A DNA stretch of 64,000 nt from the human T2T-CHM13v2.0 reference genome, Homo sapiens. Made by a program: the position numbers and the translations under genes. The DNA lies in assembly GCF_009914755.1 (NCBI RefSeq), contig NC_060939.1; one strand, 5' to 3'. The notes beneath the pieces are model-generated. The model made no database searches and was not told where the DNA came from. It saw only the letters and a program-made list of their open reading frames with translations. Below, in pieces: positions 50,559 through 58,100 of the stretch (its first letter is position 1; every line of letters starts with the position of its first letter).

Positions 50559-50666
50559 GTGAGTGAGGTTCACAGCATCCCCTAAAGAAGCTGAACCGGG
50601 GCAGCTATGGTCTCCCAGAAGTGCAAAGGAAGAGCCAAATGTCATCTCTCACCTTACTGACCCCAG

Positions 50667-50790
50667 GTGGTGGCAGCCACCCTCTTCTGGTACCATATGA
50701 CACCTTGACTGCCAAGGAAAAGTTCAAGGACCGGGAGAAGGCACAGGACCTGTTTAAGTTCCTCCAAGTGAATGGCATCATAGTTTCCAG
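50667..50790 (+). CDS. RYR3: RYR3 exon P ([40 protein letters not shown])
   Basis: ccccag acceptor after a 108-nt intron; CAG|gtaagt donor; 124 nt. Confidence 0.95.
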
Positions 50791-56578: not shown

Positions 56579-56809
56579 TGAAGCTGCTTTCTGATTGTTA
56601 AAGTAGAAAAAAGGGTAGTGAAACAGCTTAAAGAATTGACACAAGAAATAGCTAACCAGGACAGTTGTAAAGTACTTTGTAAGATATATTTTGTGAAATC
56701 AGATAGCCTTTTTAAATAGCCTTTAGAAAAGCTGCTCTGTTTCTAAAATGTTGTGACTGATTTTTACTTCGTAACTCTGGCCAACTTTGTGTTACCTGTG
56801 TCTTCGTAG

Positions 56810-56877
56810 AAGCCATTGTCAGCAGTGGGAAAACTGAAAAGTCTCCCCGTGACCAGGAGATCAAATTCTTTGCCAAA
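56810..56877 (+). CDS. RYR3: RYR3 exon R (AIVSSGKTEKSPRDQEIKFFAK)
   Basis: tcgtag|AAG acceptor; AAA|gtaagt donor; 68 nt. Confidence 0.94.
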
Positions 56878-56934
56878 GTAAGTGGCCCTGCACTTAATCA
56901 AATTACTTTCTTCTTAGGATCTCTACTATTTAGG

Positions 56935-57566
56935 AAACAGGTTAAGTGGATCCAGTGAAGATATCTAAAACTCCAATGGCTTCAGTGAGGTACATGTATA
57001 TTTCTCTGTCGTGTAACAGTCCCAAGGGAGGCTGGCAGTCCAAGGAGGGATGCAGTCTGCCTAGCCCCACACCATCACCTGGGAACCCAGGTTCTTCCTC
57101 TCTTGCTACTCCACCATCTCCGGAGGTGTGGCCTGTGTGCGTGGTTCAGACAGGCTCACCTGCACTGCATCTGTGGGAAAGGGAAAAGGAGAAGGGAAGG
57201 CAAGCTGTTGCTTTTTAAAAGTTCTATCCCAATGGCTAGAACTTGTCATCTTTCACCTTACTGACCCCAGGCAGTATGTCTGGGGTCAATAAGGTGAGAG
57301 ATGACAGGTTTACCCTTATGGTACATATGGTACCCTCTTCTGGTACGATATGATACCTTGAATGCCAAGGAAAAGTTCAGGGACCGGGAGAAGGCACAGG
57401 ACCTGTTTAAGTTCCATTTGAGCTTCATCCAGCTGCAAGGGAGACTGGGTGATACGTTTTCTGCCTGGGTGGCTCTCTATCCAGCTAAAACACAGTGGGA
57501 TCCTGTTGCCAAAAGGAAGAAGGGGAGAATGAATTTGGGCTCAAGTTAGCAGTCTCTTCCATACAG
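56935..57566. mobile_element. MLT1J/K-type LTR interrupted by the exon-P copy
   Basis: ...cccaatggctagaacttgtca | insert | cat...cagctgcaagggagactggg...gaaggggagaatgaat...agcagtctcttccataca follows the MLT1J/K pattern cattggccagaacttagtcacatggcc...agctgcaagggaggctggg. Confidence 0.7.
57240..57415 (+). pseudogene. Intronic rearranged partial copy of RYR3 exon P (acceptor + inverted acceptor + 84-nt exon body)
   Basis: 57244-57270 matches 50640-50666 (26/27); 57280-57306 matches its reverse complement (26/27); 57332-57415 matches 50679-50762 (80/84). Confidence 0.95.
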
Positions 57567-57978
57567 CCCTGCTCAGAGGACTAAAGGCACAGAAGGGCTT
57601 GAGTCGCCTTGCTCTGAGAAGCAGACAGAATGCTTGAGGCTAGTGGCACTAAGCCATGCCTTGAGTGCCTCTTAGATGCAGCGCCCAAGAAGCCCTATCT
57701 GAGTGCAGCTGTCTCGTAGGACTCCTCTGCAAATGCGCACACATTTCTTTGGGCCCTTAGTCCATGGCTGTCTCCTTTCACATGCCCTTAAGGACTCTGG
57801 TTTGAGGCATAGAAAAGGAAAATACGATGGAAACTGGGACCAAAGGGGTAGAATTTCCTGGAAATTACAGGACCAGGGTTCAGAGGCTTTTTGCTCACTG
57901 AAAATAAACACTTTTAAATGAACCAAATGAAGAGTTTTGGATAGCTTCCTAGAAGTTGATTTCTGGTGCGTTTCCCAG

Positions 57979-58100
57979 GTTCTCCTCCCGCTGGTTGACC
58001 AGTACTTCACCAGTCATTGCCTCTACTTCTTGTCATCCCCTCTGAAGCCCCTTAGCAGCAGCGGATATGCCTCCCATAAGGAGAAAGAAATGGTGGCCGG
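57979..58100 (+). CDS. RYR3: RYR3 exon S ([40 protein letters not shown])
   Basis: ttcccag acceptor; CGG|gtgagt donor; 122 nt. Confidence 0.95.

What the first reader, a model, noticed from the sequence alone, without database searches (positions are those of the whole stretch)
57240..57310. Hairpin-caged 23-nt poison microexon created by the fold-back
Seen: the left arm is a near-exact copy of a working acceptor (...ttactgaccccAG, 57270). Inverting its ctcacctt creates a consensus-like donor AAG|GTGAGA at 57293/57294. Together they define a 23-nt exon (57271-57293). Inclusion between R and S shifts the frame to TGA at 58043-58045, predicted to trigger NMD. Both sites lie in one 34-bp stem (57240-57273 with 57277-57310: 30 Watson-Crick, 3 G-U, 1 A-C). 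Inference: a self-silencing cryptic exon or structure-gated switch for RYR3 dosage; stem-breaking variants could be deep-intronic loss-of-function alleles.
Basis: partly seen in the sequence, partly recalled or inferred. Interest (0 to 1): 0.85.

Follow-up and report, generated by a model that had tools for sequence, protein, structure and literature searches.

The report
Hairpin-masked pseudoexon from an exon-fragment duplication
A very stable hairpin in a RYR3 intron is the fold-back scar of an old partial exon duplication; it does carry a splice acceptor and a strong donor 23 bases apart, but it looks like a silent relic, not a working switch for RYR3 levels.

Summary
There is a 34-bp stem (30 Watson-Crick, 3 G-U, 1 A-C) with a 3-nt loop. 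An AG ends at 57270 and AAG|GTGAGA lies at 57293/57294, 23 nt apart. Inclusion would give a first in-frame stop at TGA 58043-58045.

The hairpin has a simple origin. Bases 57244-57415 are a rearranged copy of 50640-50762, which is 27 nt of intron plus the 5' part of exon 50667-50790. The 27-nt intron end was copied twice, head to head. The donor is the reverse complement of the copied pyrimidine tract.

Nothing supports use or regulation:
- The hub table lists no exon here in 19 RefSeq transcripts.
- The acceptor is mediocre and the exon is 23 nt.
- There is no UGC motif upstream of the AG.
- Both sites are almost fully paired.
- The arms have drifted at the same rate as the non-stem part, with no compensatory changes.
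- None of 201 single substitutions or 510 small deletions exposes both sites in silico.

Stem-masked decoy splice sites in introns are already described (PMC1935003). My verdict is a real structure and a hypothetical exon, most likely a neutral relic. RNA-seq junction data and other primate genomes could not be consulted.

The parts
50640..50762 (+). Source of the duplication: the last 27 nt of the intron plus the first 96 nt of annotated RYR3 exon 50667-50790.
   Evidence: blastn of the intron against the window. A whole-genome search finds only this place and the copy.
57240..57273 (+). Left arm of the hairpin. Bases 57244-57270 are a direct copy of the source intron end (26 of 27 identical). 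It carries the pyrimidine tract, candidate branch sites and the AG at 57269-57270.
57274..57276 (+). 3-nt loop (GTA).
57277..57310 (+). Right arm. Bases 57280-57306 are the reverse complement of source 50640-50666 (26 of 27). It carries the donor-like AAG|GTGAGA (57291-57299).
57271..57293 (+). Hypothetical 23-nt pseudoexon between the copied acceptor and the inversion-made donor. No evidence of use.
   Evidence: the hub annotation lists no exon here.
57311..57331 (+). 21-nt junction filler between the fold-back and the exon copy, with no clear source. Together with the start of the exon copy it forms small secondary hairpins (57311-57323 and 57326-57350).
57332..57415 (+). Copy of exon bases 50679-50762 (80 of 84 identical). 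The frame is still open. The original donor was not copied.
58043..58045 (+). TGA that would become the first in-frame stop if the 23 nt were included.

Best explanation
The hairpin is the fold-back junction of an old intragenic duplication, probably primate-age. About 123 bp (the end of one intron plus most of exon 50667-50790) was copied 6.6 kb downstream into the intron between exons 56810-56877 and 57979-58100. In the same event or soon after, the first 27 nt were laid down twice in opposite orientation. This is the kind of product left by template switching or snap-back synthesis during replication or break repair. One arm therefore keeps a real acceptor. The other arm, being the complement of a pyrimidine tract that contains CACCTT, reads as a near-consensus donor. 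In the pre-mRNA the two arms emerge about 40 nt apart and should pair at once. That buries the branch region, the pyrimidine tract, the AG and the donor in one 29-34-bp helix. The expected result is that the 23-nt segment is not spliced in, and the element has no effect on RYR3 output. It is a neutral relic whose own structure keeps its decoy splice sites silent. Shown: the anatomy, the origin, the predicted stability, the frame consequence and the neutral pattern of drift. Inferred: the mechanism of the rearrangement, its age, formation of the stem in vivo and the lack of inclusion.
For: Origin:
- The left arm matches the source at 27 of 28 bases, the right arm matches its reverse complement at 26 of 27, and the exon part matches at 80 of 84.
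- Only these two places match in the 3.1-Gb genome. The flanks are unique.
- Each arm differs from the source by one private transition: 57252 makes a G-U pair and 57289 makes the A-C mismatch. The arms share no difference from the source, so the palindrome was perfect when it formed.

Neutrality:
- There are 2 changes in 54 arm bases against 4 in 84 non-stem bases (Fisher p = 1.0), and no compensatory pair.
- 3 of the 4 changes in the exon copy alter the amino acid.

Masking:
- MFE is -58 kcal/mol, z = -10.1.
- Mean unpaired probability is 0.05 for 57251-57271 and 0.001 for 57291-57299.

Weak exon features:
- With a crude matrix built from the window's 20 exons, the acceptor scores 3.6 bits. 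It ranks above 3 of the 20 real acceptors, and 324 of 4745 non-annotated AGs score as high.
- There is no TGC in 57230-57270.
- Real neural microexons are reported to have unusually accessible branchpoint-to-3' splice site regions (abstract of PMC12871342).

No record of use:
- The hub table lists no exon here in 19 RefSeq transcripts.
- Searches for RYR3 with 'poison exon' (0 papers), 'cryptic exon' (1, by its title and abstract start on an unrelated topic; not opened), 'pseudoexon' (1, a different locus), 'microexon' (1; the one passage naming RYR3 concerns tandem duplicated exons, not this element) and 'deep intronic' (6; only titles and abstract starts seen, none describing this element) found nothing.

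Precedent:
- Unused donor sites in wild-type introns that are kept silent inside RNA stems are documented for ATM and CFTR (abstract of PMC1935003).
Against: - The donor is really strong. It scores 10.1 bits, a score reached by only 5 of 3256 non-annotated GTs in the window, itself included. It is one of 10 NAG|GTRAG sites on the + strand, 5 of which are real donors.
- The acceptor is a copy of one that works constitutively 6.6 kb upstream.
- Folding is a thermodynamic prediction. Helicases, bound proteins or A-to-I editing could open the stem in cells.
- Transcripts destroyed by NMD are under-represented in annotation, so absence from RefSeq is weak evidence.
- I could not consult any RNA-seq junction resource or any other primate genome, so both non-use and the age are untested.
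Confidence: 0.8

Rival explanations
1. Splicing noise. The stem breathes or is unwound in a small fraction of transcripts. The strong donor is then occasionally used, either with the 57270 acceptor or with upstream AGs, giving rare frameshifted transcripts that NMD removes. There is no regulation and no measurable effect on dosage.
For: The donor is among the 5 best of 3256 non-annotated GTs. Acceptors of equal score lie outside the stem at 57091 and 57154 and would give pseudoexons of 203 and 140 nt, which are more exon-like sizes. RYR3 has a documented polymorphic pseudoexon elsewhere (passages of PMC10078293). It contains an (AAG)n tract that I located about 15.5 kb downstream, outside the window.
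Against: The donor's unpaired probability is 0.001. There is no annotated transcript and no report in print.
Confidence: 0.12
2. This is a structure-gated poison microexon: a helicase, RNA-binding protein or editing enzyme opens the stem in some cell state, the 23 nt are included, and RYR3 mRNA is lowered through NMD.
For: Both splice signals are intact, the frameshift and TGA are confirmed, and both sites lie in one helix.
Against: - Drift is neutral and there is no compensatory change.
- The estimated age is young, whereas known regulated poison exons are usually deeply conserved (recalled).
- A 23-nt exon is not a multiple of 3, has no UGC motif and has a mediocre acceptor.
- 0 of 201 substitutions and 0 of 510 deletions open both sites in silico, so the gate would need active unwinding of about 30 bp.
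- There is no annotation or literature (hub table).
Confidence: 0.03
3. The hairpin acts as double-stranded RNA rather than as an exon. It could be an ADAR editing substrate, with the A at 57289 opposite C as the obvious candidate site, or a precursor of a small RNA.
For: It is a near-perfect 34-bp duplex with one A-C mismatch. Covariance models of several miRNA families give weak hits on it (best is mir-4796, 27.1 bits, E = 0.005).
Against: None of the 11 Rfam matches comes near its gathering score (27 against 90 bits). The hits reflect a generic hairpin shape. The 3-nt loop is far shorter than usual for a Drosha substrate (recalled). The hub table lists no RNA gene in the window. Editing, if it occurs, would have no evident consequence.
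Confidence: 0.05

Closest known systems
Decoy 5' splice sites silenced inside intronic RNA stems (ATM and CFTR pseudoexons; Buratti et al. 2007, PMC1935003, abstract read)
   Same: A donor-like sequence already present in a wild-type intron sits in a stem and is not used. Those authors showed that exposing such sites produces pseudoexon inclusion.
   Different: Here the stem is much longer (34 bp) and was made in one step by an inverted duplication. It buries the acceptor as well as the donor, and nothing has been tested experimentally.
Poison (NMD-coupled cassette) exons such as SCN1A 20N or those of SR-protein genes (recalled, not from a call)
   Same: A cassette bounded by AG and GT whose inclusion would create a premature stop well upstream of the last exon junction.
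   Different: Known examples are observed in transcripts, respond to NMD inhibition and are usually strongly conserved. This one has no transcript evidence and looks like a young, neutrally drifting duplicate.
Neural microexons (30 nt or less; SRRM4-dependent class)
   Same: The size is 23 nt, and RYR3 is expressed in brain (recalled).
   Different: - There is no UGC motif near the 3' splice site.
- The length is not a multiple of three.
[quoted passage not shown]
Templated insertions and inverted-duplication junctions from template switching or snap-back synthesis (replication-based or end-joining repair; recalled)
   Same: A nearby sequence was copied into a new site, with part of it laid down in both orientations around a very short spacer and with filler bases at the junction.
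   Different: The mechanism is inferred from the product alone. The template happened to be a splice acceptor and an exon, and that is what gives the product its splice-site look.
Published RYR3 pseudoexon with an (AAG)n enhancer (PMC10078293, passages read)
   Same: It lies in the same gene, is an intronic pseudoexon, and its inclusion is documented in a minigene for the (AAG)10 allele.
   Different: It is a different locus. The (AAG)8 tract lies at about window coordinate 72,801-72,824, outside the window. It is driven by repeat length and not by RNA structure.

Membership tests
Poison exon (NMD-coupled cassette exon) | Bounded by a usable 3' splice site (AG) and 5' splice site (GT). | tested here: met
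   AG at 57269-70 and AAG|GTGAGA at 57291-99. The donor scores 10.1 bits and the acceptor 3.6 bits on a crude matrix built from the window's exons.
Poison exon (NMD-coupled cassette exon) | Inclusion creates a premature stop upstream of later exon junctions. | tested here: met
   The first stop is TGA 58043-58045, inside exon 57979-58100. By the hub table the gene continues for about 110 kb beyond the window.
Poison exon (NMD-coupled cassette exon) | Inclusion is observed in transcripts and rises when NMD is inhibited. | not testable with these tools
   No RNA-seq resource was available. The hub table lists no exon in 56878-57978 in 19 RefSeq transcripts. Five literature searches found nothing on it.
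Poison exon (NMD-coupled cassette exon) | Evolutionary conservation of the exon and its flanks. | not testable with these tools
   No other vertebrate genome is held. Internal evidence is 6 changes in 138 copied bases, the same rate in stem and non-stem parts, which suggests neutral drift.
Neural (SRRM4-type) microexon | Length of 30 nt or less, usually a multiple of 3. | tested here: inconclusive
   At 23 nt it is short enough, but it shifts the frame.
Neural (SRRM4-type) microexon | UGC-containing enhancer just upstream of the AG (motif recalled). | tested here: not met
   No TGC in 57230-57270.
Neural (SRRM4-type) microexon | [quoted passage not shown] | tested here: not met
   Predicted mean unpaired probability is 0.05 over 57251-57271.
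Structure-masked decoy splice site / pseudoexon | The splice-site-like sequence lies in a stable stem. | tested here: met
Structure-masked decoy splice site / pseudoexon | Opening the stem activates the site. | not testable with these tools
   This needs a minigene. In silico, no single substitution (0 of 201) or small deletion (0 of 510) opens both sites.
microRNA precursor | A match to a curated family at its gathering score. | tested here: not met
   The best of 11 matches is mir-4796 at 27.1 bits against a gathering score of 90.
Fold-back (inverted duplication) junction of a duplicative insertion | Both arms derive from one source sequence elsewhere, in opposite orientation. | tested here: met
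   The arms match 50640-50667 at 27 of 28 (forward) and 50640-50666 at 26 of 27 (reverse).

The most novel reading that the evidence does not exclude
The fold-back made, in a single mutational step, a self-caged poison microexon that cells can unlock to lower RYR3 mRNA through NMD, for example with a dsRNA helicase or with ADAR editing at the A-C mismatch 57289. This would be a lineage-specific dosage switch born from an exon-fragment duplication.
Probability: 0.03. Interest if true: 0.6.

Novelty: new member of a known kind. Interest (0 to 1): 0.2.

Why it matters
If the element is inert, as I think, its value is mainly illustrative. It shows how one rearrangement can create an acceptor, a near-consensus donor and the structure that silences both, and why sequence-only splice predictors may flag deep-intronic sites that RNA structure keeps off.

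For RYR3 variant interpretation the practical message is reassuring. Single-nucleotide variants and small deletions in this hairpin are not predicted to unmask the pseudoexon. Only if junction reads exist and respond to NMD inhibition would it become a candidate regulatory or disease-relevant element.

Tried and rejected
- Transposon inverted repeat. Rejected because both arms and the adjoining 84 bp match one unique source in the same gene, and nothing else in the genome matches. The flanks 56878-57243 and 57416-57978 are single-copy at the sensitivity of the search.
- Known RNA family or miRNA. Only sub-threshold generic hairpin hits were found.
- The published RYR3 pseudoexon. It is a different locus, about 15.5 kb downstream.
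- The RYR3 tandem duplicated exon substitution event mentioned in PMC9741552 (one passage read). It does not concern this intron as far as the passage shows. I did not open that paper's supplements, which may name the exons.
- Selection on the stem. The rates in stem and non-stem parts do not differ (Fisher p = 1.0). With only 6 substitutions the test has little power.
- Extension of the palindrome beyond the source homology. In the alignment the arms resemble each other for a few more bases (the outer 4 bp of the stem), where the present source differs. This is too short to decide whether the fold-back arose in place after the copy or whether the source has since changed.
- MaxEntScan and SpliceAI are not available. 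I used a crude log-odds matrix from the window's 20 annotated exons, so the scores are for ranking only.

Full report
**Observation**

The sequence at 57240-57310 is as described. The repeat finder reports one inverted repeat in 56800-58100, with arms 57240-57273 and 57277-57310 of 34 nt each and 3 nt between them. A script census gives 30 Watson-Crick pairs, 3 G-U pairs (57243/57307, 57252/57298, 57271/57279) and one C-A mismatch (57261/57289), with loop GTA.

As RNA, 57230-57320 folds at -58 kcal/mol against -22.8 +/- 3.5 for dinucleotide shuffles (z = -10.1; 0 of 200 shuffles as good). The stem is kept in both the MFE and the centroid of a 351-nt context. In a 151-nt context the outer 5 bp trade places with a small upstream hairpin, which leaves 57245-57305 paired.

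In the whole window only 5 close inverted repeats of 20 nt or more are found. The other four are A/T-rich low-complexity sequence at 74-81% complementarity.

AG lies at 57269-57270 and the donor AAG|GTGAGA at 57291-57299, with 23 nt between the sites. The 20 annotated exons are open in one frame (0 stops in 818 codons, against 38 and 44 in the other two frames). Exon 56810-56877 ends on a codon boundary. Inserting the 23 nt gives a first stop at TGA 58043-58045.

**What it is**

The intron 56878-57978, compared with the whole window, has three informative self-matches:
- 57244-57271 matches 50640-50667 on the same strand (27 of 28).
- 57280-57306 matches 50640-50666 on the opposite strand (26 of 27).
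- 57332-57415 matches 50679-50762 on the same strand (80 of 84).

50667-50790 is an annotated constitutive RYR3 exon whose acceptor context ends in the same 27 bases. A search of the 3.1-Gb assembly with 57200-57460 finds only the query itself and that exon. The flanks 56878-57243 and 57416-57978 are single-copy at the search's sensitivity.

The element is thus a rearranged duplicate. It holds the intron end plus about 96 nt of the exon. The intron end is laid down twice head to head, 11 exon bases (50668-50678) are replaced by the inverted copy, and there is a 21-nt filler (57311-57331). The exon's own donor was not copied.

Each arm differs from the source by one private transition. 57252 C>T makes one G-U pair, and 57289 G>A makes the A-C mismatch. 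The arms share no difference from the source. The palindrome was therefore perfect across the 27 copied bases when it formed and has since decayed.

**Age and selection**

Six changes in 138 copied bases give 4.3% (Poisson 95% interval 1.6-9.5%). With recalled primate neutral rates of roughly 1e-9 per site per year, this suggests an event some tens of millions of years old. That is an inference I could not check, because no other vertebrate genome is held.

The arms carry 2 changes in 54 bases and the non-stem exon copy 4 in 84 (Fisher p = 1.0). There is no compensatory pair. In the exon copy, 3 of the 4 changes alter the amino acid, although the frame is still open over the 45 codons examined. 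This is the pattern of neutral drift, with the caveat that six substitutions give little power.

**Would it be spliced?**

I built a crude log-odds matrix from the window's 20 annotated sites. No MaxEntScan or SpliceAI was available, so the scores serve for ranking only (all figures below are).

Donor:
- It scores 10.1 bits. Leave-one-out scores of the real donors run from 3.4 to 12.9.
- Only 5 of 3256 non-annotated GTs reach that score, itself included.
- It is one of 10 NAG|GTRAG sites on the + strand, of which 5 are real donors.

Acceptor:
- It scores 3.6 bits, above only 3 of the 20 real acceptors. The source acceptor scores 6.3.
- 324 of 4745 non-annotated AGs do as well.

Eight pseudoexons of 3-300 nt in the window have both sites at least this good. 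Three of them use this same donor, with acceptors at 57091 (203 nt), 57154 (140 nt) and 57271 (23 nt). If the donor were ever free, the longer versions would be at least as plausible as the microexon.

An internal exon of 23 nt is hard for the splicing machinery to define. This is established knowledge, restated in the abstracts of PMC12871342 and PMC11648925. The UGC motif I recall for SRRM4-dependent microexons is absent from 57230-57270. Real neural microexons are reported to have unusually accessible branchpoint-to-3' splice site regions (abstract of PMC12871342). Here the predicted mean unpaired probability is 0.05 for 57251-57271 and 0.001 for the donor.

**Robustness of the cage**

I folded all 201 single substitutions in 57240-57310 that keep the AG and the GT. 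The largest loss of stability is 7.2 kcal/mol. The highest mean unpaired probability is 0.14 for the acceptor region and 0.16 for the donor.

I also folded 510 deletions of 1-15 nt that spare 57257-57271 and 57291-57299. None exposes both sites. The best minimum over the two sites is 0.14. The best single-site exposures are 0.48 for the acceptor (which shortens the exon to 12 nt) and 0.44 for the donor.

The strand that masks the donor is the acceptor's own pyrimidine tract. The strand that masks the AG is the body of the would-be exon. Removing an arm therefore removes a site.

**Other identities tested**

A permissive Rfam scan of the intron gives 11 matches at E of 10 or less. The best are miRNA-family models on the hairpin (mir-4796 at 27.1 bits against a gathering score of 90; mir-992 at 26.7 against 79). 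These are generic hairpin resemblance and not membership. The hub table lists no RNA gene in the window.

**Literature**

Full-text searches gave the following:
- RYR3 with 'poison exon': 0 papers.
- RYR3 with 'cryptic exon': 1 paper, by its title and abstract start on an unrelated topic; I did not open it.
- RYR3 with 'pseudoexon': 1 paper.
- RYR3 with 'microexon': 1 paper.
- RYR3 with 'deep intronic': 6 papers. I saw only their titles and abstract starts, and none describes this element.

The pseudoexon paper (PMC10078293, passages read) validates a different RYR3 pseudoexon, driven by an (AAG)n tract. I found (AAG)8 at L003 1802-1825, which is about window coordinate 72,801, outside the window.

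PMC9741552 (one passage read) lists RYR3 among genes with tandem duplicated exon substitution events. I did not open its supplements, which might name the exons.

The concept of unused donors held silent in intronic stems, and activated when the stem is altered, is already established for ATM and CFTR (PMC1935003, abstract read).

**Verdict**

The structure is real and striking, and its origin is now explained. The '23-nt poison microexon' is a correct in-silico construct with no evidence of use. Several features argue against use: a mediocre acceptor, very small size, no microexon enhancer motif, near-complete pairing, neutral drift and no annotation.

My estimates are:
- Silent relic of a fold-back exon-fragment duplication: 0.8.
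- Rare unregulated noise splicing: 0.12.
- dsRNA-type activity such as editing: 0.05.
- A regulated structure-gated dosage switch: 0.03.

The decisive data are RNA-seq junctions under NMD inhibition and orthologous primate sequences. Neither could be reached with these tools.

Noticed in passing
window 57332-57466: The intronic copy of exon 50667-50790 keeps an open reading frame in the source's frame for all 45 codons examined. That is 18 codons beyond the end of the homology, even though 3 of its 4 differences from the exon change the amino acid. It has no copied donor and no annotated use.
   Followed up: partly
window 57311-57350: Just after the main stem, the junction filler and the start of the exon copy form two further small hairpins (57311-57323 and 57326-57350) built around GGTACC/CATATG-like palindromic words. 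This may be a second, shorter template switch in the same rearrangement.
   Followed up: partly
L003 1802-1825 (about window coordinate 72,801-72,824, outside the window): An (AAG)8 tract fits the published polymorphic RYR3 pseudoexon, whose inclusion in a minigene needs the (AAG)10 allele (PMC10078293). It shows that RYR3 introns do hold activatable pseudoexons, but not at the hairpin.
   Followed up: yes
window 57091 and 57154: Two non-annotated AGs outside the stem score as well as the copied acceptor. With the 57293 donor they would define pseudoexons of 203 and 140 nt, and both would shift the frame.
   Followed up: no
window 57240-57243 with 57307-57310: The stem extends 4 bp beyond the part that still matches the source. 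The two arms resemble each other there while the present source differs. So either the fold-back arose in place after the copy, or the source intron has changed since.
   Followed up: partly
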